Positions 1 to 26,789 of a DNA stretch of 64,000 nucleotides are shown one piece after another. Positions within the stretch are counted from its first letter, which is position 1, and each line of letters opens with the position of its first letter. The stretch is from contig JAOUBJ010000004.1 in the NCBI GenBank assembly GCA_029860345.1, positions 202,943-266,942 on the forward strand. The letters are read 5' to 3'. This stretch comes from Candidatus Zixiibacteriota bacterium. Lineage in GTDB: Bacteria > Zixibacteria > MSB-5A5 > GN15 > FEB-12. The notes under the pieces were generated by a model, which was not told where the DNA came from, searched no databases, and saw nothing but the letters and a program-made list of their open reading frames with translations. A program made the position numbers and the translations under genes.

Positions 1-2430
1 ATTGGCCCTGGTGTACTTGTCAGGATGAGAGGCAATAACCTGGTACAGGCTTTCCGCCTTGGCATACTCTTGCCTGAACATATAGACGTTTCCCAGTTGC
101 CAGAGACTGGCCACAAAGTCAGGCTTTAGCTCCAGAGCTTTTTCGAAGGAGGCAATAGCGCTGTCTAGCATTCCGTTTAAGGCATAGATTGCGCCCCTGT
201 TATCGTAGGCATTGTGCTTTTCCGGTGCTGATTCCATGTACATGTTGGCTGCCCAGAGAGCCTTGTCAGTATCTCCAATCCACTCGTAGATATAAGCGAG
301 GTCATTGTACGCTTGCTTGTCGACCTGGACGGCCAGCGAACATTGCATGATAGCGTCCCCGAATCTATCCATGCTTCTCGCCAAAAAATAAGCATATCTG
401 GTATATGATTCGCTTCTATTCGGCTCGATCTCAATCAGGCGCTGATAGAGTTCCTCCGCCTCCTGCCATTCAGAGGACTGTACTTTTCTCCGCACTCTGC
501 TCTCAAGAAGGGGAATCGCCATCGGGTTTAACTCAAAGGCTATATCTTCCTCTTGGATTTGTTCGGGATACCTGGCCATAGCTCCTAAAAGTCCAGAATA
601 CCAGAGGTGCGCCCAGGCATAACCGGGATTAAGCTCAATAGCACGCGAGTATTCCTTTTCGGCTCCCTCCAGATCATTCTCATCCCACAGGATATTTCCC
701 ATTGAGGCGTGGGTTTCAGCCAGGCCTTCATCAAGCCCAATAGCTATTTCCGCCGCCGCTCGGGCGTTCGACAGAGCTTCTGTTTTCGTGACAGTTCCGG
801 TCACATAGATGTATTCCCGAAGGGTGGACCAGGCATCGGCCAGTCCGGAGTGCGCCAGGGCATAGTTGGAGTCGAACTCAATGGCCATTTCAAAATACTC
901 AATGGCCTTTCTTATATCACTCTCGGTTCGCTTATTCCACAGGTGGCGGCCGCGCGTGTAGTAATTGTAGGCCTCTATGTTTTCTGTATAGCGGCGGGTA
1001 ATAACTGCCTCGTCCGTGCCGAGCAGTTCAAGTCGCATTGCGGCAACAATGGCTCTGGAAATGTCATCCTGGATATCGAAAACGCTCTCCAATTCTCGGT
1101 CATAAGTCTGCGACCAGAGGTGAGCATCATCGGCGCTATTAATCAACTGTGCCCTGACCCGGATCTGGTTCTCCTCACGTTGAATACTCCCTTCGAGAAC
1201 AGTATTGACCAGTAGGTCCCGACCGATTTTTCTGAGATCCCGGTCCGAATCCTTGTAGCGCATTACCGATGTCATCGAGATGACTTTCAGCTTTTCCACT
1301 CCGGACAGTCGGCCGATAATGGCATCCGTCATACCGTCGCAGAAGTACTCCTGGTCTTTGTCCGGACTGAAATCTCGAAAGGGCAGAACGGCGATAGAGT
1401 TCTTCCAACCGGTTTCATCCAAAGTCGTCAGCCCGGACTCCTCCCCGATCATAGTGAAGTCCGAAATCAAAAATCCGGAAACCACAAGTATCGCAATAAT
1501 GGCGAGCCCGCCTACGGCAAGCGGCCATCTCTTCTGACGGCCAGCAGCGGCGGACTTATAGCTCTCGGTGGGAGCAACCAGACGCTTGAGATCACTGATG
1601 ACACCGGAGGCACTCTGGTATCGCATTGACGGGTCTTTCTCCAACAACTTGGCGACGGTGCGTTGGAGTTCATCCGGGATGTCTGACTTATATCGGGCCA
1701 GCGGTTCCGGGTTATTCTGTGTGATGGCTTTCAGAGTTGCCGCTTCGTTATCCTTCTCAAACGGTGTGCGATTGGCTATCAACTCATAAAGCACAACACC
1801 AAGAGAAAACAAGTCTGACCTGTGATCAACTTCCTGCCCCTGTACTTGCTCAGGCGACATGTATTGTACTGTTCCGAGTGTCGACCCGGTTTTGGTGAGA
1901 TGCTCTCCGCCTTGAATGACTGCTAGTCCAAAATCAAGTATTTTCGGTCGACCGTAGGCATCTATTACAATGTTTGAAGGCTTGATATCTCGGTGGACAA
2001 CTTTCTTATCATGTGCAGCACTGAGTCCATCGCAGACTTGTATTGCCAACTCGACTACTCTGTCAATGCCAAGCTCTTTCCCCTTGGCCAGGTCGCGTAG
2101 TGATTGACCCTCCACCAACTCCATGGCAAAAAACGGTCGGCCCCGAAATTCTGAAACTTCATAGATAGTGACAATATTGGGATGATTGAGCTTGGCAGTT
2201 GCTTCAGCTTCACGGATAAAGCGTGCTTTGAAATCATCATCAGAGGAATGTTGCGTCGGCAGGAACTTCAGAGCGACTTTACGAGACAGCTTGCTGTCCT
2301 GGGCCAGGTAGACCTCACCCATTCCACCGGCGCCGATTTTCTCGACGATCCGGTAGTGTGCCACCATTGTTCCGGCAGTCAGAATGACGTGCGTGCGAGT
2401 CCGATCATCATGTGAGTCCTCTGGCGCCAT
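1..2430 (-). CDS. Hanks-type Ser/Thr protein kinase with TM segment and TPR-like C-terminal region; 3' end runs off the window
   Basis: Absent from the ORF track because no stop codon lies inside the window. The minus-strand frame ending at 2430 has no tta/cta/tca triplets in the stretches I checked (1..660, 1790..2430). It starts at ATG (cat 2428..2430): MAPEDSHDDRTRTHVILTAGTMVAHYRIVEKIGAGGMGEVYLAQD..., followed by HRDIKPSN and DFG motifs. The 5' ~150 nt are nearly identical to the other four kinase genes. Confidence 0.8.
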   Translation of the reverse strand, partial: MAPEDSHDDRTRTHVILTAGTMVAHYRIVEKIGAGGMGEVYLAQDSKLSRKVALKFLPTQHSSDDDFKARFIREAEATAKLNHPNIVTIYEVSEFRGRPFFAMELVEGQSLRDLAKGKELGIDRVVELAIQVCDGLSAAHDKKVVHRDIKPSNIVIDAYGRPKILDFGLAVIQGGEHLTKTGSTLGTVQYMSPEQVQGQEVDHRSDLFSLGVVLYELIANRTPFEKDNEAATLKAITQNNPEPLARYKSDIPDELQRTVAKLLEKDPSMRYQSASGVISDLKRLVAPTESYKSAAAGRQKRWPLAVGGLAIIAILVVSGFLISDFTMIGEESGLTTLDETGWKNSIAVLPFRDFSPDKDQEYFCDGMTDAIIGRLSGVEKLKVISMTSVMRYKDSDRDLRKIGRDLLVNTVLEGSIQREENQIRVRAQLINSADDAHLWSQTYDRELESVFDIQDDISRAIVAAMRLELLGTDEAVITRRYTENIEAYNYYTRGRHLWNKRTESDIRKAIEYFEMAIEFDSNYALAHSGLADAWSTLREYIYVTGTVTKTEALSNARAAAEIAIGLDEGLAETHASMGNILWDENDLEGAEKEYSRAIELNPGYAWAHLWYSGLLGAMARYPEQIQEEDIAFELNPMAIPLLESRVRRKVQSSEWQEAEELYQRLIEIEPNRSESYTRYAYFLARSMDRFGDAIMQCSLAVQVDKQAYNDLAYIYEWIGDTDKALWAANMYMESAPEKHNAYDNRGAIYALNGMLDSAIASFEKALELKPDFVASLWQLGNVYMFRQEYAKAESLYQVIASHPDKYTRAN

Positions 2431-2636
2431 TGCTGAGATCCTTTTCCGAATGCTAATTTCTTATCTAAGAAAGAGACAAACTGTCTTCTTTGCAACCTAA
2501 ACTCAACCGGATCGTAGTGTGACCACATTGTGACCGTTTTTTATTCGCCGATAGAAGCATCTTGGCTGGCCCATTTATTCTGCCAAAGGCCGCCGCAAAG
2601 ATCGAATCCCAGCCCAGTAGTTCACCGGATTGAAAG

Positions 2637-4484
2637 TCATTTTGCTTCCAGCAACTTCATGAATTCAAGAGTGTATTTGAGGACCATTTCGGTTTGTCCT
2701 AACTCCATGTGTGAACATGGTGCTCTGACAATTGCTTCTTCATGAAAGTCATCGCCAAGGATATTGTTTTCAAGGTGTTCCTGCATCAGCATATCCAGGG
2801 CAGGGTAACCATCGGTATCAATTACAAACTGTGTATGTCGGATTCTACTTCTACAATACTTATACCACTTTGGAAACTGCTCCCAACTACCATCCTTGAA
2901 TGGAGCAAAAATGTCGGATGCGTATTGGCTCAACGGTGCGGTCTTAATTCCAAATTTGCTAAATGCTTTCACTAGATAGTCATGTATGATCAACCAGTTA
3001 TACAACGAGGAGGACATTTGACTGAACAGATTGATAGTGGACAGAATCTGGCTTTCATCACCGTCAGCCAACTCCGCAAGTTTGCCCGACGCAAAGCAAT
3101 CTTCAATATGTACATTGCAGCCAAGAGCCAGTACGCCGGTTGCCCTAATATCAGAAAACAATTCAGAGGTTAGTAGATGAAGAAAATGGTCAGCACCAGA
3201 TGAATGCCCAACCAGAACAGTGTTACGCGGTCGAAGTCGAGTGTACAAGTCCTTAATCAAAGCATGGATGAGAATTGAATGATCTCGCAACGTGAGGGGA
3301 AGTCTTAGTTGAGCGTTACGTTCAAATCCGAAGACCGATATGGCAATCGCTCGAAATGGTAATTGGTGAAGCACGTCAGAGTAATGTTCGTGGTCGGTAC
3401 CCAAAGGGGGCAGATAGAAAACCAACGCATCAGATGCAATCCCGTTGTCTATGTATGCCAACGAACCGCCGATCATCTTCGGGTCTTTATGAGATAGTTG
3501 ACGAACTAAGTCGGTAGTAATGACAAATGACTCTTCACAAAGCACACTTCCTACCGCTATCGGGTCTTGATCGATTATAGTAATGGCTGTATCCCGTCGT
3601 AACTCGTTAGATAATTCCTCAAGCTCATTACAGACATCCCGGGCGGTTTGAAATCGTTTGTCCGGTTTCTTGGCTAAACATCGTGATACAATTCGGTTGA
3701 GGTCATACGGAATATTCGAACGCTTGCTGTGTAGATCAGTTGGAGTGTCTCTTAGAATCCCGGCTGAAACCTCAGTGGCAGTAGGAGCTGAAAAGGGATG
3801 TTCGCCAGTGATTAGTTCATGCATTATTACGCCGAAGGCAAAGATATCTGCCCTGGCATTGATCTCCTGGCCGAGTAGTTGTTCGGGTGCCATGTAAGAT
3901 ATTGTTCCGGCCACTTTTCCTGCGAAAGGATCACTTGTACGGGTAGCTTCAGAGTCATTCAATGATTCAACATCTGAAAGAGTTGCCAATCCAAAGTCCA
4001 GGATCCTAGCTGCTCCGCTTGCATCTATCATCAAATTACCAGGCTTCAAATCTCGATGGATGACCCCCTTTTCATGAGCTGCTGTTAGTCCCTTGGTGAT
4101 TTGAATGCCTATGTCAATTATGTCGGCAACAGTTAACAGTTTATCGCTTGATAGTTCCTTCAGCGATTGCCCCTCAATATAGTCCATGGCAATATACGGT
4201 ACTCTTCCACCTTCGTTAATCTCGTGGACAGTGACTATACTTGGATGTTGTAGTCGTGCGGCTGCTCGAGCTTCTTGTGTGAATTGACGCAGTACAGCAT
4301 CGCTCTTAGTTTGCTCTTCAGGTAGGAACTTAAGAGCCACTTGGCGCTTGAGTTTAGTATCTTCGGCCAGGTAGACCTCACCCATGCCACCGGCGCCGAT
4401 CTTCTCGACAATCCGGTAGTGTGCCACCATTGTATCTTTGGTCAGCACAACATGCGTGCGCGTCTTGTCGTCGTCAGCTTCCAT
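2637..4484 (-). CDS. Ser/Thr protein kinase fused to a C-terminal alpha/beta-hydrolase-like domain (no TM)
   Basis: 615-aa ORF. The N-terminus reads MEADDDKTRTHVVLTKDTMVAHYRIVEKIGAGGMGEVY with HRDLKPGN, DFG and APE motifs. The C-terminal ~300 aa carry a GxSxG nucleophile elbow (VLVGHSSGADH) and a late His (CSHME). It lies 8 nt downstream of the preceding kinase stop. Confidence 0.85.
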   Translation of the reverse strand: MEADDDKTRTHVVLTKDTMVAHYRIVEKIGAGGMGEVYLAEDTKLKRQVALKFLPEEQTKSDAVLRQFTQEARAAARLQHPSIVTVHEINEGGRVPYIAMDYIEGQSLKELSSDKLLTVADIIDIGIQITKGLTAAHEKGVIHRDLKPGNLMIDASGAARILDFGLATLSDVESLNDSEATRTSDPFAGKVAGTISYMAPEQLLGQEINARADIFAFGVIMHELITGEHPFSAPTATEVSAGILRDTPTDLHSKRSNIPYDLNRIVSRCLAKKPDKRFQTARDVCNELEELSNELRRDTAITIIDQDPIAVGSVLCEESFVITTDLVRQLSHKDPKMIGGSLAYIDNGIASDALVFYLPPLGTDHEHYSDVLHQLPFRAIAISVFGFERNAQLRLPLTLRDHSILIHALIKDLYTRLRPRNTVLVGHSSGADHFLHLLTSELFSDIRATGVLALGCNVHIEDCFASGKLAELADGDESQILSTINLFSQMSSSLYNWLIIHDYLVKAFSKFGIKTAPLSQYASDIFAPFKDGSWEQFPKWYKYCRSRIRHTQFVIDTDGYPALDMLMQEHLENNILGDDFHEEAIVRAPCSHMELGQTEMVLKYTLEFMKLLEAK

Positions 4485-4492
4485 GACATTCC

Positions 4493-7453
4493 TTACGGCG
4501 CTGATTTCAGTTTTGCCAGGCGCTCTTTGGCATCGTCGACTGCGACCAGCCCCGAGTCTGCATCTTTCCAGATGTCCAGGAAAGTCTCGTATTGCTCAAT
4601 CGCTTTGTCATTCCAACCCGATTCTTCGTACGCCGTTCCCAAATAGTAGTGTAACTTGACTGACTCGATTGTCCATTGTAGTCGGTCTTCGCTGAAGGTG
4701 GAGAGCAACTGTTCATATCCGTTCACCGCCTCGCCCAGTTGGCCGTTCACCTGTTGGGTCTTGGCCAGCATAAGATAGGCTCGAAACCCGGAGGTGTATC
4801 CTCGGCTGCTATACATGCTCGAGGCCGTTCCGAAATACTCGACAGCGGCCGGTAAGTCTCCCTTGGCTCGCTCGACACAGCCGGCGGCGATCCACCAGAG
4901 CGATAGTTTCGCCGAATCGTCCGGGGCAATAGGACCTTTCCATTCCGCCAGCGCTGTCTCGGCTTCGTCGATACGGCCACCTTCCGCCAGCATCTGTATG
5001 TAGAAATGCTGGATCGGGACAAGCAAGCCGCGATTCTCCCTGTAGCCCTCCATAGCCACTTGCATCGCGGCCAGTCCCTTGTCAATCTCCCCGAGTTCAG
5101 CATAGATTCTGGCGACTTGATAATGCTTGGGCCAGGTCTCGGCTTTCTCCATCCGGTCGGCAGCGATACCCTGCTCAAGTACACTGAGCGCTTGTTCGAA
5201 TCTGCCCTGGTGTACCAGGACCAGTGCTGGGTACTGTCGTGCAACCGACCGATCGTTCTTGCGTGGGCTTTCAAGGAGTCTATCGAAACATCGTTGCGCT
5301 TCGTCGTAGTTCCTTTTGTAAAGATGCATGAGGCCGAGATTCCCCCATGACTGGTAGAAATCTCCTTTGATCTCGATAGCCTTGGCAAACGAGCCAATCG
5401 CTTCATCGATTCTGCCATTGCCCGCGAAGAGCTCACCACGAGAGTCGTACGGGTTAGCTTGGTCCGGTTCCAACTCTATGTATTTATTCATCGCCCAGAT
5501 CGACTTATCGAAATCTCCAATGTCATTGTAACAATATGCCAAAGCGTTGTAGGCCGAACCGTATAGAGAATCCAGCTCTATAGCCCGGGTGTAGTGTTTG
5601 ATGGCCATGTTCACCTGCCGGAAGCCGTAGCTGTAGAAGATGGCCATGTTTAGATGTGCTTCCTTGTCATCGGGATAGCGCTTGACAATCTCCTGGCACC
5701 TGGCCAGCGATTTTAGCGGCTCCCCGTTCACCCAGGCATGATAGGCTTCGATGGTCAACTTCTCTTTGTACCTTGAGTTGGTGGAGAATTCAAGAGCTTT
5801 GGCCAGATAGGTGCGACGGCGCGGTCCCTGGCCCACCCTGGCCAGTTGATAGAAGGCCATGGCAAATGTCGAGTCCAATGTGATCGCTTGCTTCAAAGCA
5901 AGCTCGGCGTCGGCCAAGTAGCGCTGGAATCCTAATTCCACACCTTCCAGATAGTGGCGATAAGCCTCGGGCGATGTCGTAGTCACTTCCGCCACCGGCC
6001 GATCCGTCTCGGTTAAGGCTTCTTCGGGAAGGGATAAATCGCTTTTGATTTCAACAGTCAGTTTATCCACAAGCGTGAAAATGTCCTCACCCGGCTTACC
6101 GTTGATTCTTTGTGAGGCCACCGCGGTCCCCGATGAAACCTCTATTAGTTGAGCCGTCATGACGATTTGCGGGTCCGTGCCGAGAATACTCCCCAGTAAC
6201 ATCCATTTGGCTTTGGCTCGTTCAGCGATTTGGGATGCTGTTGAATGGTCAATTGTCTTCTCACCCTCACGTCCCAGATTCTTCAAAATATCGTACAGGC
6301 GTTGGCTTGAGACCACCTGTACGAAGCGTGACTCCGAGAGGTCGGTGATCAATAGATTGGTTGCAATCTCACCCATCTTTTGGCTGTCGGCCGGATCGGC
6401 CAGGTTGTCGAAATACATAATGGCCAGACGATTTGTTTCGGCCGACGCGTCCCCGGCACCCTGCTGTTGAAGCTCCCACGGTTTGAAGACCAACATGGCG
6501 ACCAACAGGATAACAATCAGTGTAGGAACCAAATACCGAGTCGTGTTGCGAGTTTGGGTTGTTACAGTGGGCGTGATGATTGAACTGTCGGAGTCGCGTC
6601 TCAATCGTTTCAGGTCGGTGATTACGTCGTCGGCGTGTTGGTAGCGAAGAGATGCATCCTTCTCCAGGAGTTTCGACACGATGTTCTGCAATTCGTCGGG
6701 GACGTCGCTTTTGTATCGTGACAACGGTTCTACGGACTCACTCAAGACGGCGTTCATCACCGACGCTTCGTTGTCCCCTTCAAACGGCAACCGCGCCGTC
6801 ACCATTTCGTAAAGCACCACCCCGAATGAAAACAGATCGGAACGCTGGTCAACATCTTTGCCCTGAATCTGCTCCGGTGACATATAACCGACCGTACCGA
6901 GCGTCGAACCGGTTTTGGTAACTTTGTCCAAACCTTCAATCGCGGCCAGCCCGAAATCGAGCAACTTGGGTCGACCATCGGCATCAATTACGATATTCGA
7001 CGGTTTGACATCACGGTGTGTGACTCCGCTTTGATGAGCTTTGTGCAGCCCCTCCAGAGTCTGAATAGCCAATCCAGTGACTTCGTCCAGATCAAGCTCT
7101 CGCTCTTTGGTCAAGTCACGAAGAGATTTGCCTCCCACATGCTCCATGGCAAAGAAAGGCCGTCCTTGATATTCTGAGACCTCAAAAATCGTGACAACGT
7201 TGGGGTGGCTCAGCTTGGCCGTTGCCTGGGCTTCGCGCTTGAACCTCTCGCGACAATCCTCGTCATTGCTTAGGTGCGTTGGCAGAAATTTCAGGGCGAC
7301 ATTTCGAGACAGCTTGCTGTCTTCGGCCAGATAGACCTCGCCCATGCCACCGGCGCCGATCTTGCAGGCGATACGGTAATGCGACACCATCGTGCCCTTG
7401 GTCAACACGACGTGTGTGCGCGTCTTGTCGTCGTCAGCTTCGTGGTCTACCAC
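4493..7453 (-). CDS. Ser/Thr protein kinase with one TM and a long TPR region
   Basis: 986-aa ORF. Kinase motifs are GAGGMGEVY, HRDVKPSN, DFG and SPE. A hydrophobic span (LVPTLIVILLVAMLVF) is followed by a long TPR-like repeat region. Confidence 0.9.
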   Translation of the reverse strand: MVDHEADDDKTRTHVVLTKGTMVSHYRIACKIGAGGMGEVYLAEDSKLSRNVALKFLPTHLSNDEDCRERFKREAQATAKLSHPNVVTIFEVSEYQGRPFFAMEHVGGKSLRDLTKERELDLDEVTGLAIQTLEGLHKAHQSGVTHRDVKPSNIVIDADGRPKLLDFGLAAIEGLDKVTKTGSTLGTVGYMSPEQIQGKDVDQRSDLFSFGVVLYEMVTARLPFEGDNEASVMNAVLSESVEPLSRYKSDVPDELQNIVSKLLEKDASLRYQHADDVITDLKRLRRDSDSSIITPTVTTQTRNTTRYLVPTLIVILLVAMLVFKPWELQQQGAGDASAETNRLAIMYFDNLADPADSQKMGEIATNLLITDLSESRFVQVVSSQRLYDILKNLGREGEKTIDHSTASQIAERAKAKWMLLGSILGTDPQIVMTAQLIEVSSGTAVASQRINGKPGEDIFTLVDKLTVEIKSDLSLPEEALTETDRPVAEVTTTSPEAYRHYLEGVELGFQRYLADAELALKQAITLDSTFAMAFYQLARVGQGPRRRTYLAKALEFSTNSRYKEKLTIEAYHAWVNGEPLKSLARCQEIVKRYPDDKEAHLNMAIFYSYGFRQVNMAIKHYTRAIELDSLYGSAYNALAYCYNDIGDFDKSIWAMNKYIELEPDQANPYDSRGELFAGNGRIDEAIGSFAKAIEIKGDFYQSWGNLGLMHLYKRNYDEAQRCFDRLLESPRKNDRSVARQYPALVLVHQGRFEQALSVLEQGIAADRMEKAETWPKHYQVARIYAELGEIDKGLAAMQVAMEGYRENRGLLVPIQHFYIQMLAEGGRIDEAETALAEWKGPIAPDDSAKLSLWWIAAGCVERAKGDLPAAVEYFGTASSMYSSRGYTSGFRAYLMLAKTQQVNGQLGEAVNGYEQLLSTFSEDRLQWTIESVKLHYYLGTAYEESGWNDKAIEQYETFLDIWKDADSGLVAVDDAKERLAKLKSAP

Positions 7454-7464
7454 ATCAACAGCCC

Positions 7465-10155
7465 TTAGAACTTGATACCTTCATATTTGGCAATGATCTC
7501 TTTATATCTTGGATGATCACGCACTGGCTCCCACCGAGGGTCCATCTCCACCCAGGCGGTCGAAAAGGTAGACGGAATAGACAGGACCTCTTCTAAGTAT
7601 TCGAGCGCCGTGTCAATATTTCCGGCGTTCAACTGAACAAGGGCCATGACCATGACCGCAGAAGGTCCTCACCAATGGCAGGCTTCAACAGGCATGGTCT
7701 CCATCGCCAATTGCGCCTGTTCTATGGCCTGCTCATGTCTACCGGTTTGTGAATAAATCATGGCAAGCATTTCTAAGACCTCGTGATTAGGAGGAAGGGG
7801 CTCAAATCGACCGGATGTGTCACGCCTCGCCTCTTCGTTGCGATTGTAGGTTACTATGCGGGCCGAATCCAAATAGAGGTAAGCAGATTCCTCGTCCCCG
7901 TTGTAGCGATAGAGAAGCCCAATGCTAACATACAGCTTTGGATCGGGGTTGTACTGTAATCCTGATTTTGCACGAGAGATCAGTAGGTCAAGATCAGGTA
8001 ACTGATTCCTTGAATCAAGGAAGTCGTGAATGATCGGTGCGACGACGCTCCCCAGGGGGCTCGTGCCCCTGTCCGACCACTCGGAAAGGGTTTGTTGAAT
8101 CTGCTCAACACTTGCTCCCATACAAATCTGAATCCTTGCTTTTAGCGCATACACCCCAGCACCACCTACAGGAACTTTTGGCCCGAATCGCTCAATTACT
8201 TCCAATGCTTTTTCGTACTGATGAGAGTACCAACTCGCCCACAACATCGTTAACTTCGTCCCAAATGATCGAGGATCAAGCTTGATGACCTGCTGGGTCA
8301 GAGCTATCGTTTCATACCATTTGCCCTGTCGTAACTTGACCATCGCGATTGCGCCCAGAACAAACGCTTCTTCAACATGCCCTAGTCGAGCAAGTTCAAA
8401 TTCCCAAAGTGCCTTGTCGTAATTTCGTTCAATCAAGTTATAATAAGTCCCACTAGCCAGGTGCGCCTCTGCCAAGTCAGGCTGGATCTCAAAAGCCCGT
8501 TGATATGCTTCTCGTGCCGGTCTTGTATGCTCCGAGAACCCCGACTCGTAAAAGAAAGCAAAATACGAATGTGATATAGACTTCGCAGTGAATGCCATGG
8601 CAAAAGTCGAATCCAGCTCAATAGCCTTATCCAGCAGTTCAATTGCTTTAAGCAGACCGCCGGGGCCCACTTTAGAGTTCATCGACCTCAGATAATAATC
8701 ATAAGCATCAGGGTTTTCGGTCGGCCGATAATCGAGCGCCTCCTGGCCACCAGCCAGGAGGGTCGTGCCAAGTGCCTCGGCAATACGCATAGCGATCTCA
8801 GCCTGCACCTCAAATATCTCGGAAAGGTCTTTTTGAATATTATCTGTCCAGACGGCAGTTTCATCAGATACGCGAATCAGCTCCGGTGTGATCCGTATCT
8901 TGTCGACACTCCCGGACTTGTCCCATCTGATTGTACCTCCAAGGATGTAATCGACATTTAGCTCAGCGCCGATTTCACTGATGCGCTTGGTCGTTCCCTT
9001 GTATTGGAGAACACTGGTTCTGGCCATGACACCAAGACCATCGAGAACATTAACCTTTGAAGTAATCTCGCCGGTAATTCCGTCAGCGAAGTATTCATCT
9101 TCCGGTGCACCGAGATTCTCAAAGGGAAGGACGGCCAGTATTATCCGCTCGTCAATAGGTGTGACTTTCTGTTCATCCTTGTCGCCCGGGTAGTACTTCA
9201 CACCGGCCACTATCAGTATCGCAATTGTCACTAGCCCACCGAGTGCAAGCGGCCATCTACTCTTTTGCTTCGCTGGAGTCACAGTCATCGAACTCTGCGT
9301 CGAAACAACCAGACGCTTGAGATCGCTGACCACACCACCCGAAGTTTGATACCGCATCGAGGTCTCTTTCTCCAACAGTTTTGAGACAGTGCGTTGGAGT
9401 TCATCAGGGATGTCCGCTTTGTACCTAGCCAGCGGTTCCGGGTTGTCCTGCGTAATAGCTTTCAGTGTCGCAGCTTCATTGTCTTTCTCAAATGGTGTGC
9501 GACCTGCGATCAACTCGTATAGAACGACGCCAAGTGAAAACAAATCTGATCGATGATCAACTTCTTTACCGTCTACTTGCTCAGGTGACATATACTGCAC
9601 AGTGCCCAGGGTCGAACCTGTCTTGGTTAGTTGCTCCCCTCCCTGAATGGCTGCTAACCCGAAATCGAGTATCTTCGGTCGACCGTAGGCATCGATTACA
9701 ATGTTTGAAGGTTTGATATCTCGGTGAACGATTTGTTTCTCGTGAGCGGCGCCGAGTCCGTCACAGATTTGCAGGGCCAGTTCGATGATCCTATCAACAC
9801 CAAGCTCTTTTCCCTTGGCCAGGTCGCGTAGTGATTGACCCTCTACCAACTCCATCGCAAAAAACGGTCGGCCTCGAAATTCCGAAACTTCAAAAATCGT
9901 AACGATGTTGGGATGATTCAGCTTGGCCGCAGCTTGTGCTTCACGTTTGAAACGGGCGCGGCAATCTTCATCGTTGCTAAGATGCGTCGGCAGAAACTTC
10001 AGTGCCACATTGCGTGACAGCTTGCTGTCCTGGGCCAGATAGACCTCACCCATGCCACCAGCACCGATTTTTTCGACTATCCGATAGTGCGAAACCATTG
10101 TTCCTTTTGTCAGCACGATGTGAGTACGGGTCTTGTCGTCGTTAGGCTCGGTCAT
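7465..10155 (-). CDS. Ser/Thr protein kinase-TM-TPR protein with in-frame TGA at 7669..7671 (candidate Sec/readthrough); conventional call would be 7669..10155
   Basis: The 828-aa ORF 7669..10155 ends ...MPVEACHW-TGA. The 62-aa ORF 7465..7653 is in the same frame (10155 and 7653 are both 0 mod 3), separated only by TGA-GGA-CCT-TCT-GCG-GTC. The continuation is TPR-tail-like and homologous to the one in the next paralog. Confidence is about 0.9 for the kinase itself and about 0.55 for the extension. Confidence 0.6.
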
Positions 10156-12791
10156 TTCGCCTCATGCCTTTCAAGAAGTGCTATGAATCGGGGTGATTCC
10201 TGCAAAGGGGCAAACAGCGGATCGGCTCTCAGGTACTGTGGTGTGCTCCAACCTGGTATTGACAGGTGGTATTCTAGTTCATCGATGGCCAAATCATACT
10301 GTCCGATTATTGCATATATCTGGGCCATGACCATGACCGGATCAGGTCCTCACCAATGGCAGTTGTCGACAGGCATCAACTCTTTTGCGGTCTTTCCTGC
10401 GGCTACGGCCGAATCAGGCATCCCCATAAAAGCGTAGGTGAGTCCTAACCTGGAATAGATTGGCCAATCATTGGGATGCAGGCTGAAGTCGAAATCCTCA
10501 AGCAGTCGAATCCGGCATGAATCATAGTAGATGAAGGCGGAGTCTTCTCGATCAGTCAGGTCAAAAATCTGGGCGATATTCATGTAGACAAGATAGTCCA
10601 CACGTTCATCTTTTAAGTCCCGCAGGTCGGCGATCATCTCATCCGGATCGGTTCTCTCGATCACGAATCTCCATACTCCGAGAGAAGTAGAGGGAAACAT
10701 CTCATACAGCGACGATTGTGCCGCACCGAGAGCGCTCACGATACTCTCATAGGAGTGGGTAGGGGAATCAACAGTTCCATGCTCCAGCAGGTTCAACAAC
10801 AGACTGTAGTATACCATGTCCCCGTCGGTGGGAGCCAGGACGACCCCGCGATCAACGAACTCCCGGCCCTTTTTGAAGTCACGCAGATAAGAATGAGCGG
10901 TTCCAAGCCAGTAATAATGACGCACCGTGAGTGGATCGATTCTGGCTGCTTGTTCGAAGTTTGATAGCGCCTCGTGCCACTTACCCTGGCGCATCTTCAC
11001 TACGCCGATTTGCTGCAGGAGATCAGCGTTAGGTGCTACTTCTGAAGAGGCCAGCGCGAACGCATCCAGCGCCCGCTCATAATCGCGCTCAAGGAAATTG
11101 TAGTGCGACCCAAGAGCGATGTGTGCTTCCGGTAGACTGGGATCCAACTCCAACGCCTTTTCTGCCGCTTGTAAGCCTGTTGAATCTCGCCTTGCCCCAC
11201 CCCCCTTGCGACCGAATACTAACTGAGTATAAGCCGTTGATTTCTTAGCCCAGGCAAGGGCAAAGCGTGGATCGAGAGCGAGAGAAGAATCAAACATTTC
11301 GATCGCCTCACCCAATTTGGCGACGCGTGCGCTCCTGCCCATAGCGTCCAAACCACGAAGGTAGTAATTGTATGCGGCCATGCTCGTTGTCGGCGCGTAA
11401 TCAGGAGTCTGTCGGTTTGGCTCCAGAAGTGTCAAACCCAAGGCTGTAACAATCTTGGATGCGATTTCCGTTTGCACTTCAAATATCTGAACCATCTGTT
11501 GATCGAAGTTATCGGACCACATCATATAGCTGTTACTGGTCCTGGTCAGCTTGGGAGTAATTCGAAAGCGATCGACGTCGCCTGATCTGTCCCAACGAAT
11601 AGTGGCCTCGAGAATATAGTCCGCTCCCGTCTCCTTACCAATCTGCTCTATACTCCTATCTACGTCTCGGTACTTCTCGGCGCTGTTGTTTGACAGCAAG
11701 CGTAGTTCCTTGATAGTAGAAAGGCGCGAACTGATCTCCTCACGGATGCCGCTGGAAAAATACTCATCATCGGCAGCACCAAGATTTACGAAGGGTAACA
11801 CAATGAGAACCGGCGGCTGAGCCTGAGCCGACTCCTCCCCAGCGGTGAAGAGTGTGGAAATCAAGTATCCCCCAGCGACGCAAACCACTGCAGCCGATGC
11901 CAACCATACGAAACGGTTTTTCCTGGGCGGCGCTGTTTCGACGGTCAGTCGTCTCAGGTCGGCCAGCATTCCGTCGGCATGCTGGTATCTGAGGGCAGGG
12001 TCCTTGGCCAGTGCCTTGTTGATTACCTGTTGCAGCTCCCCCGTCACGCCCGATTTGAATCGAGCAATTGGTTCCGGTGTCGACGTGGTAATCGCTCTTA
12101 TTATCGCAGCATCATTGTCCCCTTCGAAAGGACGACGACCGGTTAACATCTCATATAGGATCACGCCGACTGAGAACAGGTCTGACCTCTTATCGACTTT
12201 TCCGCCGGTAATCTGCTCCGGCGCCATATACCCGACCGTGCCCAGAGTCGACCCGGTCTGGGTCAGCTTCTCTTCGCCCGAAACTGTGGCCAGCCCAAAG
12301 TCCAATAGGCGGGGTTTGCCTTTACTGTCTATGATAATATTGCCCGGCTTGATATCCCGGTGAACCACCCCTGCTTCGTGAGCTTCGTGCAGTCCTTCGC
12401 ATATCTGCTGGGTCAGACTCACAGCCTCGGCAACCGAGAGTTTGCCTTGTTTGACCACATCCCTCAACGGTTCTCCCGTAATATGGGCCATGGCAAAAAA
12501 CGGTCGCCCGTTATACTCACCTACTTCATACACCGGGACGATATTCGGATGATCGAGTTTGGCGGCCGCCTTGGCTTCGCGAGTAAACCGAGTACGACTG
12601 TCTTCGTCCCGGCACAAATGCGTCGGCAGAAATTTCAGGGCGACATTTCGAGACAGCTTGGTGTCCTCAGCCAGGTAGACTTCACCCATACCACCGGCGC
12701 CGATCTTCTCGACAATCCGGTAGTGCGAAACCATCGTGCCTTTGGTCAGCACGACGTGCGTGCGTGTTTTGTCGTCGTCGTTAGGTTCCAT
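10152..12791 (-). CDS. Ser/Thr protein kinase-TM-TPR protein with in-frame TGA at 10350..10352 (candidate Sec/readthrough); conventional call would be 10350..12791
   Basis: The ORF 10350..12953 ends ...MPVDNCHW-TGA. The 60-aa ORF 10152..10334 is in the same frame (12953 and 10334 are both 2 mod 3). The likely true start is ATG at 12789..12791 ([39 protein letters not shown]), because the upstream 54 codons overlap the cupin gene. The stop of the extended frame overlaps the next kinase start as ATGA (10152..10155). Confidence 0.6.
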
Positions 12792-12801
12792 ACTATCCGA
12801 T

Positions 12802-13170
12802 TCAATCTGCCAACTGCACCACCACAGCGAGCGCGGCAGTGTCACCCACCACACGACTTCTGTGACCCTTGCCGGTTGTGTCCTCAACCATCGTGACGCT
12901 TCCGGGGCCGAACCGGCGCGTTTCACCGTCTGAGGTCTCGGCTTCAATCTCACCAGCGAGGTAGAAAAGTAATTGGCGGCAGGGCGCTGGGTGCCAGTCG
13001 CCGAACCAGCCGGCCAGCGCTCTCAGATATCCAAATTGTGTCGCCGGTGTGAACGACGAGAGATCCAGCGGCGGCGCCGGAGGAGCAAAGTCGATTGTCT
13101 TAAACTCAACCTCCACATCCTCAAAATGCGATTCGCCGCTGTCGTCGGTATAGACCCGCGTGTACTTCAT
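12802..13170 (-). CDS. small cupin-fold protein
   Basis: 122-aa ORF with a cupin-like beta-barrel signature (...YLAGEIEAETSDGETRRFGPGSVTMVEDTTGKGHRSRVVG). It ends 10 nt before the first kinase start, so it looks like the first gene of the kinase operon. Confidence 0.65.
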   Translation of the reverse strand: MKYTRVYTDDSGESHFEDVEVEFKTIDFAPPAPPLDLSSFTPATQFGYLRALAGWFGDWHPAPCRQLLFYLAGEIEAETSDGETRRFGPGSVTMVEDTTGKGHRSRVVGDTAALAVVVQLAD

Positions 13171-14274: not shown

Positions 14275-15990
14275 TTGGACAAAAAGACTTTACCGTTAGT
14301 TATACTGCTGGTCGTGGTCATCATTTTCTACGGCCAGATTCTGGAATTCTTGGGATTGGTCGAACCGGCTCCGCTGCAGCTCCCAACTGAAACCCCGATC
14401 GCAACCGACACAGCATCCGTCGCCCAGACCACTTCTGATTTTGAACCGGCCACCACCGGTACCGATATTCAGCGGTCTCCAGATCGGCTGGATGTTGAAT
14501 CGAGCGGCTCCCTTGACTCAAATCCACCCGACACCATTGTTGTTTCCACCAACAAATACGATGTAACTCTGAGTAGTTTCGGCGGCGGTCCGGTTTCGAT
14601 GAAGCTCAAAGAGTATTTCTATCGGGACGGCGAAGAAATCGAGATGCTCCCGAAAGCGACAGCTGTCACGCCCGAGGCGACTTTTGCCGGTGGTACCTTT
14701 TCGACCTCCAAAACCCCATTCGTGTCCAGTCTTGTTGCAGGCAGTTACGATGCCACTCGGGATACTTTCGAGGTGGAGTACACATTTGACAATGGCCAGG
14801 GCGGCCGCATCATCAAGCGGCTGCGTTTCTACCCGGACAGTTATCATTACGATCTGGCCGTCGAACTGGAAGAGCCGCGGAATCTTGGGTTCGAACGGTC
14901 GTACAGGATTACCTGGAACACCCCGCTAGGTGTCACCGAACCTCAGGCCACGATCGACTACGACGCCATGGAAGCGGTCACCATGCAAGGGGGTGCCCGT
15001 GAAACCCTGGATGAGTTCGACGACGGTCGCCTGAATCAGTCGGTCGAAGGCGCCACTGTCTGGGCCGGAGTGCGCTCCAAATATTTCGCGGCTGTACTGA
15101 TTCCACAAAACCGACCGGCAGCGAGCGCTTTTGCCAAGGGGCTCAAACAAGATGTCTCCACGCCCGATGGCTCCACCGAAGCACGGTATATCACGGCCGG
15201 CATGGATTTGCAATTCACCGGTCTTGAGAATCATAGTGACAGCTTCAGAGTCTTTGTGGGACCGCTTGATTATTCGCTGTTGGACGGGTACGATGTCGGT
15301 CTTGAGGATATGCTCGGTATCGGCACCACTCCATTTGTCGGCTGGATTATCAAACCGTTCGCGATTGCTATTATCTGGTTGTTGCCGCGTTTGTACAGTT
15401 TTCTCCCCAACTACGGTCTGGTGATCATTCTATTCGCGCTGATGGTCAAGATTGTGACTTTGCCGCTGTCGATGAAATCGTTCAAATCGATGCAGGCCAT
15501 GCGCGACCTGCAGCCGAAGGTCGATGAGTTAAAAACCAAGCACAAGAAGAACCCGCAGGCAATGAACCAGGAAATGATGAAGCTCTACAAAAAGCACGGG
15601 GTCAGTCCGGTCTCCGGCTGTCTGCCGATGCTTCCTCAGATGCCTCTGTTTTTCGCCCTCTTTAGTGTCTTCCGGTCGACCATCCTGCTTCGCGATGCAC
15701 CTTTTGTTTGGTTCATTAATGATCTGTCGCGCGGTGCCTCGGGCTTTTCAGATCCATACATTATTCTCGTGGTCATCATGGTGGTCGCACAATTCTTGTC
15801 GCAACAACTGACCATGCCCAGCACACAGCAGAACAAAATGATGATCTATCTGATGCCGTTGTTCATGGGTTATATCTTTTACACGTTCGCCGCCGGGCTG
15901 GTATTGTACTGGATTTGCTTCTCAGTATTCTCCCTGCTTGATTACGTGCTGTTCAAGAGGAAGAAAAACGCGCAAGTGATGACTACCTGA
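14275..15990 (+). CDS. yidC: membrane protein insertase YidC
   Basis: 571 aa with an N-terminal TM, a large periplasmic domain, and the conserved C-terminal core (PLSMKSFKSMQAMRDLQPKVDELKTKHKKNPQAMNQEMMKLYKKHGVSPVSGCLPMLPQMPLFFALF). Confidence 0.92.
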   Translation: MDKKTLPLVILLVVVIIFYGQILEFLGLVEPAPLQLPTETPIATDTASVAQTTSDFEPATTGTDIQRSPDRLDVESSGSLDSNPPDTIVVSTNKYDVTLSSFGGGPVSMKLKEYFYRDGEEIEMLPKATAVTPEATFAGGTFSTSKTPFVSSLVAGSYDATRDTFEVEYTFDNGQGGRIIKRLRFYPDSYHYDLAVELEEPRNLGFERSYRITWNTPLGVTEPQATIDYDAMEAVTMQGGARETLDEFDDGRLNQSVEGATVWAGVRSKYFAAVLIPQNRPAASAFAKGLKQDVSTPDGSTEARYITAGMDLQFTGLENHSDSFRVFVGPLDYSLLDGYDVGLEDMLGIGTTPFVGWIIKPFAIAIIWLLPRLYSFLPNYGLVIILFALMVKIVTLPLSMKSFKSMQAMRDLQPKVDELKTKHKKNPQAMNQEMMKLYKKHGVSPVSGCLPMLPQMPLFFALFSVFRSTILLRDAPFVWFINDLSRGASGFSDPYIILVVIMVVAQFLSQQLTMPSTQQNKMMIYLMPLFMGYIFYTFAAGLVLYWICFSVFSLLDYVLFKRKKNAQVMTT

Positions 15991-16095
15991 TATGCCGTCA
16001 AAAAAAAAACCGATGATCTGGATGATCTATTAGACGGTGATAGTATTGCCGCTGTTATCACGCCACCGGGCCGAGGCGGCATAGCGGCCATCCGA

Positions 16096-17403: not shown

Positions 17404-17418
17404 GTTTCACGTGAAACT
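17403..17418. promoter_or_regulatory. parS-like ParB binding site (14/16 match to the palindrome)
   Basis: AGTTTCACGTGAAACT. The core GTTTCACGTGAAAC is identical to the perfect site at 19862. It lies immediately after the mnmE stop. Confidence 0.5.
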
Positions 17419-17860: not shown

Positions 17861-17874
17861 AGAGTTGCAGTATC

Positions 17875-20369: not shown

Positions 20370-20455
20370 GCAAGGTCGGTTTTTGTTGCGCGCACCGTCG
20401 CAACCTGGTAATATCATTTCGAATAGCAGGATGTTGCGATAACAAGGAGTGTTTC

Positions 20456-24049: not shown

Positions 24050-25057
<1,008 letters not shown>

Positions 25058-25090
25058 CCAGATCAGGCATAACCAAACCCTCAGCACGAA

Positions 25091-25687: not shown

Positions 25688-25788
25688 GAATATCCTCCAA
25701 CCAGCTGCCTAATGAAGGAAGCCCCTGCGAACCAAAGAACAGATTGTCAGCTCAAACCGATTCACTACTAGTTACGTTTCTCTTTGAA

Positions 25789-26742: not shown

Positions 26743-26789
26743 CAAGCTACTCGATTCAGAGAGGCGAACGACAAGAGGAGAGAGTAAAC

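What the first reader, a model, noticed from the sequence alone, without database searches (positions are those of the whole stretch)
7642..7680. Conserved in-frame UGA in a C-H-W-UGA-G-P context with an fdhF-like hairpin 11 nt downstream: candidate selenocysteine codon in a Ser/Thr kinase-TPR gene (paralog 1)
Seen directly:
- The kinase ORF stops at TGA (7669..7671).
- The same frame stays open for 67 further codons, running through the 62-aa track ORF to a TAA at 7465, only 11 nt before the next kinase start.
- The mRNA reads UGC CAU UGG UGA, then the 11 nt GGACCUUCUGC, then GGUCAU-GGUC-AUGGCC. That is a 6-bp stem (one G-U pair) with a GGUC loop.
- The paralog at 10350 has the identical arrangement.

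Established knowledge, as I recall it: in the E. coli fdhF SECIS the minimal SelB-binding hairpin starts 11 nt after UGA and has a GGUC apical loop. C-x-x-U is the classic redox selenoprotein motif.

Inference: the UGA is decoded (as Sec or by another readthrough) and the real protein carries a ~65-aa TPR-tail extension. I do not know of any selenocysteine-containing Hanks kinase/TPR sensor.
Basis: partly seen in the sequence, partly recalled or inferred. Interest (0 to 1): 0.85.

Follow-up and report, generated by a model that had tools for sequence, protein, structure and literature searches.

The report
Selenocysteine codon in bacterial sensor kinases
Two neighbouring membrane sensor-kinase genes carry an in-frame UGA followed by a small conserved RNA hairpin, a pattern kept in about 90 related genes from four bacterial phyla, so they most likely encode a previously unlisted family of selenocysteine-containing signalling receptors.

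Summary
On the minus strand each gene reads TGC CAT TGG TGA, then 11 nt, then GGTCAT-GGTC-ATGGCC, and stays in frame for 67 or 66 more codons.

It is not chance, an assembly error or an ordinary stop.
- The same module occurs in 83 distinct genes from Zixibacteria, Ignavibacteria, Calditrichaeota and Neomarinimicrobiota.
- Nine of nine members found by protein similarity alone have TGA there, while their true terminators vary.
- The hairpin pairs in 100% of 474 cells, with compensatory changes at wobble positions.
- Its Val codons are GTC in 164 of 164 cases, against 33% elsewhere in the same genes.
- The post-UGA tail is a recognised C-terminal TPR cap. It aligns without gaps to uninterrupted homologs, with UGA taking exactly one residue column.

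The Cys three residues upstream is invariant (C-x-x-U). The sensor module is fused to Hanks kinases or class III cyclases.

Two gaps remain. No Cys-containing homolog exists. I could not test for selA, selB, selC or selD in the source genome.

The family is absent from a 2026 catalogue of 119 prokaryotic selenoprotein families. Verdict: a probable new selenoprotein family using a canonical minimal bacterial SECIS (confidence about 0.8).

The parts
7465..10155 (-). Paralog 1: the full read-through gene of 896 codons plus TAA. It encodes a Hanks Ser/Thr kinase, one TM helix and an extracytoplasmic alpha/beta + TPR sensor. Gene callers split it into 828-aa and 62-aa products.
   Evidence: Translation. 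Pfam Pkinase at residues 24-270 and TPR hits on both sides of the UGA. Split gene calls in L042/L043.
9346..10086 (-). Protein kinase domain of paralog 1 (residues 24-270).
   Evidence: PF00069, E = 4.8e-52.
9199..9255 (-). Predicted single transmembrane helix (about residues 301-319, WPLALGGLVTIAILIVAGV). It places everything downstream, including C-x-x-U, outside the cytoplasm.
   Evidence: Best 19-aa hydropathy window. The same layout is seen in 40 family members, with 492-536 aa (nearly all 510-536) from the TM helix to U. The topology is inferred.
7669..7680 (-). C-H-W-U codons of paralog 1 (TGC CAT TGG TGA). The candidate Sec codon is at 7669-7671.
   Evidence: The Cys is invariant, and x-x varies (HW, QW, YW, HY, YY, HL, FW) across the family.
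7658..7668 (-). 11-nt spacer between the UGA and the hairpin. It encodes G-P-S and the first two bases of Ala.
   Evidence: The Gly after U is invariant across Sec and non-Sec homologs.
7642..7657 (-). SECIS-like hairpin GGUCAU-GGUC-AUGGCC, with the loop at 7648-7651. It overlaps the codons for (A)-V-M-V-M-A.
   Evidence: 100% of 474 cells pair. Pair 1 is GC71/AU4/UA3/GU1, pair 2 is GC78/AU1, pair 3 is UG77/CG1/UA1, and 0 of 500 shuffles reach the observed value. Folding energy is -6.3 kcal/mol.
7465..7668 (-). Post-UGA extension of paralog 1: 67 codons plus TAA. It holds the last TPR and the 'TPR end-of-group' C-terminal cap.
   Evidence: NF047558 TPR_END_plus scores 49.7 bits against a cut-off of 32. 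Pfam TPR_1/TPR_14 cover residues 833-868. The extension is conserved in 80 genes at 62-82 aa.
10152..12791 (-). Paralog 2: the full read-through gene. The start is probably the ATG at 12791 (MEPNDDDKTRTH); the ORF is open up to the GTG at 12953.
   Evidence: Translation. Gene calls of 813 or 834 aa in L043 and L042.
10350..10361 (-). C-H-W-U codons of paralog 2. The candidate Sec codon is at 10350-10352.
10323..10338 (-). SECIS-like hairpin of paralog 2, with the same 16 nt as paralog 1.
10152..10349 (-). Post-UGA extension of paralog 2 (65 codons plus TGA). Its stop at 10152-10154 overlaps the ATG of paralog 1 at 10153-10155 (ATGA).
   Evidence: TPR_END_plus scores 32.9 bits.
2637..7453 (-). 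Two further Hanks-kinase genes of the same tandem array (4493-7453, 986 aa with TPR; 2637-4484, 615 aa). Neither has the C-x-x-U module.

Best explanation
Each of the two genes encodes one polypeptide: an N-terminal cytoplasmic Hanks Ser/Thr kinase, a single membrane helix, and a roughly 590-aa extracytoplasmic sensor made of an alpha/beta domain and a TPR array.

**How the UGA is read (inferred by analogy with E. coli fdhF)**
- The in-frame UGA is decoded as selenocysteine.
- The 16-nt hairpin starting 11 nt after the UGA acts as a minimal bacterial SECIS.
- Its GGUC apical loop would bind SelB-GTP-Sec-tRNA(Sec) and deliver Sec to the UGA in the A site.
- Translation then continues for 65-67 codons through the last TPR and the C-terminal 'TPR end-of-group' cap.

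**Where the residue sits**
- Sec lies in a 6-residue loop between the penultimate and the last TPR, in an invariant C-x-x-U motif.
- Uninterrupted relatives have K-D/E-A-x-x-G at the same place.

**What the motif does (inferred, not shown)**
- The most likely role is a Cys-Sec selenylsulfide redox switch, or a soft-metal or electrophile site.
- Its state would change the terminal TPR cap and so the output of the kinase, or of the class III cyclase in other lineages.

**Shown**
- The conserved UGA.
- The covarying hairpin with nucleotide-level constraint.
- The translated, homologous tail.
- The invariant Cys.

**Inferred**
- SelB dependence, Sec identity, membrane topology and the sensing chemistry.
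For: 1. **One collinear protein.** Sec forms and uninterrupted homologs align without gaps through the UGA. The Gly after it is invariant. The tail scores above cut-off for NCBIfam TPR_END_plus and Pfam TPR.
2. **Breadth.** There are 83 distinct genes: 35 loci from GTDB species representatives in four phyla and 50 metagenome loci. All have a 62-82-aa in-frame tail.
3. **An unbiased stop-codon test.** Members found by protein similarity alone have TGA in 9 of 9 cases. TGA makes up 16 of 36 stops in the window. The true terminators of the family are TGA 40, TAG 24 and TAA 16.
4. **RNA-level selection.**
   - All 474 stem cells pair, with AU, UA and GU replacing GC at a pair formed by two wobble positions.
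   - One sequence (L076) has a double compensatory change, and one has U-G changed to C-G.
   - 0 of 500 shuffles reach the observed covariation.
   - Val codons in the stem are GTC in 164 of 164 cases, against 33% elsewhere in the same genes.
   - The stems were unconstrained in the metagenome pattern.
5. **Geometry fits the published bSECIS model.** The loop is 4 nt and starts GG, the stem is 6 bp, and 17 nt separate the UGA from the loop (allowed range 16-37). The spacing and the GGUC loop equal those of E. coli fdhF.
6. **C-x-x-U.** In an exhaustive HMM search of 1.84 billion representatives, 38 of the best 150 end in CHW and about 10 more end in CQW, CYW, CHY, CYY, CHL or CFW. None continues past that point. 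The Cys is invariant.
7. **The amino-acid changes sit where expected.** V-M-V-M-A in Sec forms replaces V-E-D-L-A-like sequences in non-Sec forms. The differences therefore lie exactly at the motif and at the hairpin.
8. **UGA is otherwise a stop here.** yidC, mnmE, mnmG and parB all end in TGA.
9. **The Sec trait is documented in two of the four phyla.** Caldithrix abyssi and SAR406 cells are listed as Sec-utilising (PMC5029168, Table S2). In the related phylum KSB1, selABD genes are reported in MAGs (PMC9012183).
Against: - No selA, selB, selD or tRNA-Sec lies in the 64-kb window, in the roughly 10 kb beyond each end, or in about 100 fetched loci. The rest of the source genome could not be searched.
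- No Cys-containing homolog was found (0 of 35 with a TGH pattern; none among the best 150 representatives). Most accepted selenoprotein families have one.
- The hairpin is short, at -6.3 kcal/mol alone. Whole-region folds are no more stable than shuffled sequence (z = +0.5 to +1.1). For paralog 2 the minimum-energy fold is a different structure.
- No conserved lower stem and no bulged U exist, unlike fdhF.
- The two cultured Ignavibacteria, I. album and M. roseus, lack all selenium traits. Neither carries this module among the hits, however.
- One divergent member (L102) has a U/C mismatch at the outermost pair.
- Both DNA patterns fixed TGA-GGNCC, so the invariance of those bases in the pattern-derived set is partly by design.
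Confidence: 0.82

Rival explanations
1. The UGA is read through without selenocysteine. A near-cognate tRNA such as tRNA-Trp or tRNA-Cys would decode it, helped by the downstream hairpin, so the full-length protein carries a standard amino acid at that position.
For: - Sec machinery was not shown for this genome.
- No Cys homolog exists to anchor a Sec/Cys pair.
- The hairpin is thermodynamically weak.
Against: - If Trp or Cys were wanted, a sense codon would be simpler. Yet no member has a sense codon after C-x-x.
- The invariant Cys at -3, the G-starting 4-nt loop and the 17-nt spacing are the specific signature of SelB-dependent recoding.
- The GGUC loop and the 11-nt offset equal those of fdhF.
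- As far as I know, hairpin-stimulated near-cognate readthrough at a fixed distance is not an established bacterial mechanism.
Confidence: 0.08
2. This is a split gene. The kinase really ends at C-H-W, and the 60-70-aa TPR cap is made as a separate small protein by re-initiation at one of the two AUGs inside the hairpin, with GAGGA within UGAGGACC acting as a Shine-Dalgarno sequence.
For: - Gene callers make exactly this call, for example 828 aa plus 62 aa.
- The two ATGs and a GAGG-like string are conserved.
- When selenium is short, such products could form anyway.
Against: - A split would not need a stop that is always TGA (9 of 9 unbiased cases, against 44% background).
- It would not need an exact in-frame, one-codon, gapless junction with uninterrupted homologs.
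- G-P after the stop is retained although it would be untranslated. The Gly is invariant family-wide.
- Covariation at stem wobble positions selects for pairing, which would hide the AUGs rather than expose them.
- The SD-like string has a variable middle base (GGA, GGC, GGG, GGT) and lies 12 nt from the first AUG.
- The invariant Cys at -3 has no explanation under this model.
Confidence: 0.06
3. It is an artefact or decay. That would mean a sequencing or assembly error, a pseudogene, or an organism in which UGA is generally a sense codon (code 4 or 25).
For: A single in-frame stop in a long gene is most often one of these. One relative (L011) does look frameshifted.
Against: - The sequence is identical in three independent assemblies.
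- The module is conserved in 83 genes from four phyla, with an intact tail under selection.
- TGA terminates 16 of 36 genes in the window, including yidC, mnmE, mnmG and parB.
Confidence: 0.01

Closest known systems
E. coli fdhF selenocysteine insertion sequence (SelB-binding mini-hairpin)
   Same: - It lies in the coding region directly after the Sec-UGA.
- The hairpin starts 11 nt after the UGA.
- The apical loop is the 4-nt GGUC.
- The 5' arm begins GGU.
- The mini-hairpin has a comparable energy: -6.3 kcal/mol here against -5.7.
   Different: - It has no bulged U in the 5' arm.
- It has no conserved lower stem that includes the UGA. The full fdhF element folds at -14.9 kcal/mol.
- The UGA-to-loop distance is 17 nt rather than 18.
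- The element is nearly invariant across four phyla. The 2026 review notes that bacterial SECIS elements usually bear little resemblance to one another.
Predicted bacterial selenoproteins with a C-x-x-U motif (for example SelW-like, AhpD-like, the 'FCYXU' TonB-dependent receptor NF049945 and Trx7/PDZ NF041199), as listed in the 2026 catalogue
   Same: - A single Sec in a C-x-x-U motif.
- UGA plus an intragenic SECIS.
- Predicted by comparative genomics.
- Some members, such as the TonB-dependent receptor, are envelope proteins rather than soluble oxidoreductases.
   Different: - The host fold is a TPR solenoid in the sensor of a signalling protein, not a thioredoxin-like, AhpD or beta-barrel fold.
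- No Cys-containing counterpart exists. All nine new families in the deep-Sep study had them.
- No kinase, cyclase or TPR family is among the 119 listed.
Membrane Hanks kinases and class III cyclases with a TPR sensor ending in K-D/E-A-x-x-G plus a 'TPR end-of-group' cap (uninterrupted relatives such as P0004-P0008 and P0049-P0168)
   Same: - The same architecture and collinear sequence: output domain, TM helix, alpha/beta domain, TPR array, a 6-residue loop, the last TPR and a DPxWxPLRxxPRF tail.
   Different: - The loop reads C-[HQYF]-[WYL]-U-G instead of K-[DE]-A-x-x-G.
- The first helix of the last TPR reads V-M-V-M-A instead of V-E-D-L-A-like, because it also encodes the hairpin.

Membership tests
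Bacterial selenoprotein gene (Sec-UGA + bSECIS) | An in-frame UGA conserved among orthologs, with a conserved ORF continuing in the same frame. | tested here: met
   83 distinct genes with a 62-82-aa in-frame tail. TGA in 9 of 9 protein-found members. Gapless alignment to uninterrupted homologs.
Bacterial selenoprotein gene (Sec-UGA + bSECIS) | bSECIS consensus: a 3-9-nt apical loop, a 4-16-bp upper stem, and G in the first two loop positions. | tested here: met
   Loop GGUC (4 nt) and a 6-bp stem, judged against the criteria quoted. Pairing is 100% with covariation.
Bacterial selenoprotein gene (Sec-UGA + bSECIS) | [quoted passage not shown] | tested here: met
   17 nt (alignment columns 16-32 of A4).
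Bacterial selenoprotein gene (Sec-UGA + bSECIS) | Minimum free energy of -7.5 kcal/mol or lower. | tested here: inconclusive
   The hairpin alone is -6.3 kcal/mol. The 42-nt fold of paralog 1 is -7.9 and includes the hairpin. The paralog 2 minimum-energy fold (-9.4) is another structure. The consensus fold is -9.28.
Bacterial selenoprotein gene (Sec-UGA + bSECIS) | Cys-containing homologs with Cys in the Sec column. This is the usual validation criterion, not strictly a defining one. | tested here: not met
   0 of 35 are TGC or TGT with a TGH pattern. No protein continues past C-x-x among the best 150 of 4,206 hits. The column is I/R/V/L/W/D in uninterrupted homologs.
Bacterial selenoprotein gene (Sec-UGA + bSECIS) | selA, selB, selC (tRNA-Sec) and selD present in the same genome. 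| not testable with these tools
   Only the window plus about 10 kb on each side of the 276,863-bp source contig could be read, and none is there. The trait is documented for Caldithrix abyssi and SAR406 cells, and selABD genes for KSB1 MAGs.
Bacterial selenoprotein gene (Sec-UGA + bSECIS) | Selenium actually incorporated (75Se labelling or mass spectrometry). | not testable with these tools
   This needs an experiment.
fdhF-type SECIS of E. coli | A mini-hairpin 11 nt after the UGA with a GGUC loop. | tested here: met
   Direct comparison with the fdhF sequence found in 5,419 E. coli genomes and.
fdhF-type SECIS of E. coli | A bulged U in the 5' arm and an extended lower helix reaching the UGA. 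| tested here: not met
   The stem is a perfect 6 bp. RNAalifold finds no conserved lower helix, and its only other helix, of 3 bp, is broken in 7 sequences.
Hanks-type Ser/Thr kinase with an extracytoplasmic TPR sensor | A Pkinase catalytic domain, one TM helix and a C-terminal TPR array. | tested here: met
   PF00069 at 4.8e-52 and several TPR families. The TM helix comes from hydropathy. Some family members carry PF00211 cyclase in place of the kinase.
Thioredoxin-fold CxxU/UxxC oxidoreductases | A thioredoxin-like fold around the motif. | tested here: not met
   The motif lies in a loop between two TPRs (Pfam registers 792-820 and 837-860). Only designed TPR proteins match in the PDB.
Genome-wide UGA reassignment (genetic code 4 or 25) | UGA not used as a terminator. 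| tested here: not met
   16 of 36 window genes end in TGA.

The most novel reading that the evidence does not exclude
These would be the first selenoprotein receptors. A periplasmic Cys-x-x-Sec loop in a TPR sensor would be the sensing element itself, acting as a selenylsulfide redox switch or a soft-metal or electrophile trap, and it would drive Ser/Thr phosphorylation or cyclic-nucleotide synthesis.

The UGA-SECIS would also act as a second input. When selenium or Sec-tRNA is scarce, translation would stop at C-H-W and yield a receptor without its terminal TPR cap. Signalling output would then report selenium status.

The complete absence of Cys forms would mean that sulfur cannot substitute for selenium in this chemistry.
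Probability: 0.3. Interest if true: 0.8.

Novelty: new member of a known kind. Interest (0 to 1): 0.7.

Why it matters
- **A new functional class for selenium.** Known bacterial selenoproteins are almost all redox or metal enzymes. A Sec residue in the sensor domain of Hanks kinases and class III cyclases would extend selenium biology to signal perception.
- **A family without a Cys form.** That bears on the long-standing question of what Sec can do that Cys cannot.
- **Annotation.** In every database entry I looked at, the gene is split into a truncated kinase and an orphan 60-70-aa protein. Correcting this affects receptor-kinase annotation in at least four poorly studied phyla that are common in sediments and wetlands.
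- **A candidate engineering part.** The 16-nt hairpin with an 11-nt spacer is among the smallest natural SECIS candidates, is nearly invariant, and imposes only V-M-V-M-A on the protein. That makes it of interest as a portable Sec-insertion tag.

Tried and rejected
**Searches that found nothing**
- Rfam at gathering thresholds on the whole window gave no match.
- ARAGORN on the window and on about 50 loci found no tRNA-Sec.
- Pfam annotation of 34 window ORFs found no sel genes. The region is the origin neighbourhood.
- I scanned the window and 360 kb of loci for other TGA-split ORFs with Cys-adjacent motifs. Nothing was convincing.
- A sequence search of the PDB matched only designed consensus TPR proteins.
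- Literature searches for Sec in Zixibacteria or Ignavibacteria and for kinase or TPR selenoproteins found nothing relevant. BSepDB has no supplementary files held as text.

**Tests that were uninformative**
- Thermodynamic folding of single sequences gave z-scores of +0.5 to +1.1, and the paralog 2 minimum-energy fold is a different structure. Comparative analysis was needed instead.
- The first word-indexed protein search found only 3 hits.
- The 3-bp helix over the UGA that RNAalifold proposed is rejected, because it is broken in 7 sequences and shows no covariation.

**Readings considered and rejected**
- Genetic code 4 or 25, an assembly error, a pseudogene, and a mobile repeat. The 14-mer occurs only twice in the window, both times in this context.
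Full report
**1. The observation**

On the minus strand the window reads TGC CAT TGG TGA at 7680-7669. An 11-nt spacer follows (GGACCTTCTGC, 7668-7658), then GGTCAT-GGTC-ATGGCC (7657-7642). That is a 6-bp stem with one U-G pair and a GGTC loop.

The 828-codon kinase ORF ends at this TGA. The same frame stays open for 67 more codons to TAA at 7467-7465, which is 11 nt before the GTG of the next kinase gene.

The upstream paralog has the same arrangement: TGA at 10352-10350, hairpin at 10338-10323, and 66 further codons including the final stop. The two genes are only about 30% identical in protein over this region. Even so, they share 37 of 41 nt around the TGA, including every synonymous site. 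The degenerate 32-nt pattern is expected 0.00 times in the window.

The 336-nt segment is identical in three independent assemblies. I therefore consider the observation confirmed, and it is not an assembly error.

**2. The tail is the real C-terminus**

- Pfam places TPRs on both sides of the TGA, at 792-820 and at 837-860 or 833-868.
- The tail scores 49.7 bits against NCBIfam NF047558, 'TPR end-of-group domain', whose cut-off is 32.
- Uninterrupted homologs found by protein search read ...LLPVSKDAM-x-GP...IYVMVGE.D.AI..LE.LLSIP...DP.WDPLRDHPRF....
- In a joint alignment the Sec forms are collinear with these homologs and need no gap. The TGA occupies exactly one column and the following Gly is invariant.
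- From the Pfam registers, the TGA lies in a 6-residue loop (A-C-H-W-U-G) between the penultimate and the last TPR.
- The true stop of paralog 2 overlaps the ATG of paralog 1 (ATGA). This is the usual junction of translationally coupled genes, and it only makes sense if the tail is translated.

**3. How widespread it is**

I first scanned one genome per GTDB species with W-[TGA/TGC/TGT]-G-P-x-x-V-M-V-M-A written as DNA.
- The scan gave 35 loci, all with TGA and all preceded by Cys-His codons.
- They come from Zixibacteria, Ignavibacteria, Calditrichaeota and Neomarinimicrobiota.

I then scanned JGI metagenomes with a pattern that fixed only C-H-W-TGA-G-P and the GGTC loop, leaving both stem arms free.
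- This scan gave 50 loci, and all of them are true family members.

Together these are 83 distinct genes with tails of 62-82 aa. Several genomes and contigs carry two copies, as the window does.

**4. Is the stop always TGA?**

Both DNA patterns fixed TGA or TGH, so they cannot answer this question. I therefore used members found by protein similarity alone.
- P0001, P0002, P0009, P0010, P0012, P0013, P0015, P0050 and P0051 all have TGA, which is 9 of 9.
- All eight whose downstream DNA is on the contig have GTCATGGTCATGGCC.
- In the window TGA accounts for 16 of 36 stops.
- The genuine terminators of the family genes are TGA 40, TAG 24 and TAA 16.

An ordinary stop would not stay TGA across four phyla.

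**5. The hairpin is under RNA-level selection**

I aligned 79 distinct 75-nt elements (A4).
- All 474 stem cells form standard pairs.
- The outermost pair is made of two codon wobble positions. It is GC in 71 sequences, AU in 4, UA in 3 and GU in 1.
- The second pair is GC in 78 and AU in 1 (L076, GAUCAU...AUGAUC, a double compensatory change).
- The third pair is UG in 77, CG in 1 and UA in 1.
- None of 500 shuffles reaches the observed covariation, and slid registers collapse.
- RNAalifold recovers the same helix.
- Val codons within the stem are GTC in 164 of 164 cases, against 33% elsewhere in the same genes.
- One divergent member (L102) has a U/C mismatch at the outermost pair, which leaves 5 bp.

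The helix is thermodynamically modest. It folds at -6.3 kcal/mol alone, and the fdhF mini-hairpin folds at -5.7. Single-sequence folds are no better than shuffles, so the support is comparative and not energetic.

**6. Fit to the bacterial SECIS**

The published consensus is quoted from PMC13188914. The 16-37-nt spacing is also given in PMC10778597.

| Criterion | Required | Here |
|---|---|---|
| Apical loop | 3-9 nt | 4 nt |
| Upper stem | 4-16 bp | 6 bp |
| G in first two loop positions | yes | GG |
| UGA to loop | 16-37 nt | 17 nt |
| MFE | -7.5 kcal/mol or lower | borderline |

I verified the E. coli fdhF element in 5,419 genomes. It reads UGA + 11 nt + GGUUGCA-GGUC-UGCACC, so the offset and the loop are the same as here. 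The bulged U and the long lower stem of fdhF are missing here. The statement that the fdhF upper hairpin at 11 nt is sufficient for Sec insertion rests on my memory of the E. coli literature. PMC10778597 confirms only that a 'minimal fdhF SECIS' is used to engineer selenoproteins.

**7. The C-x-x-U motif and the missing Cys form**

I ran an exhaustive HMM search of 1.84 billion representative proteins with a profile that ends at CHW. It gave 4,206 hits. Among the best 150:
- 38 end exactly in CHW;
- about 10 more end at the same place in CQW, CYW, CHY, CYY, CHL or CFW;
- none continues beyond the motif;
- none has Cys in the Sec column;
- the rest have S-K-[DE]-A-x-x-G followed by 66-75 aa.

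So the Cys at -3 is invariant, the two intervening residues vary, and the motif occurs only together with the stop. This is what a functional Cys/Sec pair predicts. It also means that the customary Sec/Cys homolog test fails for this family.

**8. Architecture**

- Every member with enough sequence has one hydrophobic helix 492-536 aa (nearly all 510-536) upstream of U.
- The N-terminal output domain is a Hanks kinase in most members.
- It is a class III adenylate/guanylate cyclase in Neomarinimicrobiota (L017, L023) and in L101.

The Sec-bearing unit is therefore a sensor module that has been combined with different outputs. By the usual topology of such proteins it lies outside the cytoplasm. 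This topology is an inference.

**9. Sec machinery**

- None lies in the window, in the roughly 10 kb beyond each end of it on the 276,863-bp source contig, or in the fetched loci.
- From the literature, Peng et al. 2016 list Caldithrix abyssi and SAR406 (Marinimicrobia) cells among Sec-utilising organisms.
- The same paper shows Ignavibacterium album and Melioribacter roseus to lack all selenium traits. Neither species is among the carriers of the module.
- KSB1 MAGs have selABD.
- I found nothing for Zixibacteria.
- UGA is a normal stop in this genome, which excludes a reassigned code.

**10. Mechanism and rivals**

- **Best explanation (0.82).** SelB-dependent insertion of Sec at UGA-829 (paralog 1) and at the equivalent codon of paralog 2. 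It would be directed by a minimal intragenic SECIS and would give full-length receptors with a C-x-x-U loop. That loop most plausibly acts as a redox or soft-metal sensor.
- **Non-Sec readthrough (0.08).** This cannot be excluded without the machinery or selenium data. It does not explain why no member uses a sense codon.
- **Split gene with re-initiation at the hairpin AUGs (0.06).** This does not explain the TGA-only stop, the one-codon gapless junction, the retained Gly-Pro, the selection for pairing over the AUGs, or the invariant Cys.
- **Error, pseudogene or code change (0.01).** This is refuted.

**11. Novelty**

- The 2026 catalogue of 119 prokaryotic selenoprotein families contains no kinase, cyclase or TPR family.
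- The deep-Sep and BSepDB papers do not mention one.
- NCBIfam release 20 has no selenoprotein model for it. It has only the generic TPR_END_plus model, which begins a few residues after the Sec position.
- No database protein spans the junction.
- Full-text searches found nothing.

I therefore rate it a new member of a known kind. The recoding device is a canonical, unusually small and unusually invariant bacterial SECIS. The host protein is a signalling receptor, which is a functional class not yet represented among selenoproteins.

Noticed in passing
window 1-12953 (minus strand) and L042 12055-17786: There is a tandem array of six Hanks Ser/Thr kinase genes, most with TPR tails (834/813, 828+62, 986, 615, 1060 and 846 aa). 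They are separated by 0-200 nt, and one junction is an ATGA overlap. Only the first two carry the C-x-x-U module. The 1060-aa gene runs off the left end of the window.
   Followed up: partly
window 14275-22062 and L038 11475-15369: This is the chromosomal origin neighbourhood: rpmH, yidC, mnmE, mnmG, rsmG, parA and parB in the window, with dnaA, dnaN and recF just beyond its right end. The source contig is ENA ERZ27296428 k141_3172683 (276,863 bp). Window proteins are encoded with identical sequence on contigs of JGI 3300022308, JGI 3300022206 and Logan SRR7132933.
   Followed up: partly
L017 (SCKJ01000001.1), L023 (JACZSB010000063.1), L101 (ENA ERZ23499143): The same Sec-bearing TPR sensor module is fused to a class III adenylate/guanylate cyclase domain (PF00211) instead of a kinase. 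L101 has C-Y-Y-U rather than C-H-W-U.
   Followed up: yes
L011 (CAVOPW010000004.1) around 1064 on the minus strand: This copy has the TGA and the hairpin, but only 52 open codons upstream and a tail that goes out of frame right after the hairpin (a 1-nt deletion). It is either a decaying copy or an indel error in a long-read assembly.
   Followed up: no
L102 2155-2180 (JGI 3300041085): A divergent member (C-H-Y-U) has TAT before GTC, which gives a U/C mismatch at the outermost stem pair. It is the only unpaired cell seen, and the 5 inner pairs are intact.
   Followed up: partly
NCBIfam NF047558 against paralog 1 residues 844-889 and the paralog 2 tail: The 56-position 'TPR_END_plus' model begins only a few residues after the Sec position. 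That is about where gene callers start the orphan 60-70-aa ORFs (M-V-M-A...). The model may have been seeded in part from these fragments.
   Followed up: no
window 24050-30933: A MoxR AAA+ ATPase (24050-25057) and a DUF58/VWA protein (29998-30933) flank an asparaginase, a trypsin-like protease, an Lcl_C-domain protein and a GNAT acetyltransferase. This looks like a loosened MoxR-DUF58-VWA (Bat-like) cluster.
   Followed up: no
window 42566-46708 and 57092-60784: There is a 1,380-aa hybrid histidine kinase (dCache, HAMP, several PAS domains, HisKA, HATPase and a receiver). There is also a 1,230-aa ribonucleotide reductase with a TSCPD domain, which has the domain make-up of class II enzymes.
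   Followed up: no
window 54796-57091: This stretch of about 2.3 kb has no ORF of 150 aa or more on either strand. It lies upstream of the ribonucleotide reductase gene. Rfam at gathering thresholds finds nothing there.
   Followed up: no
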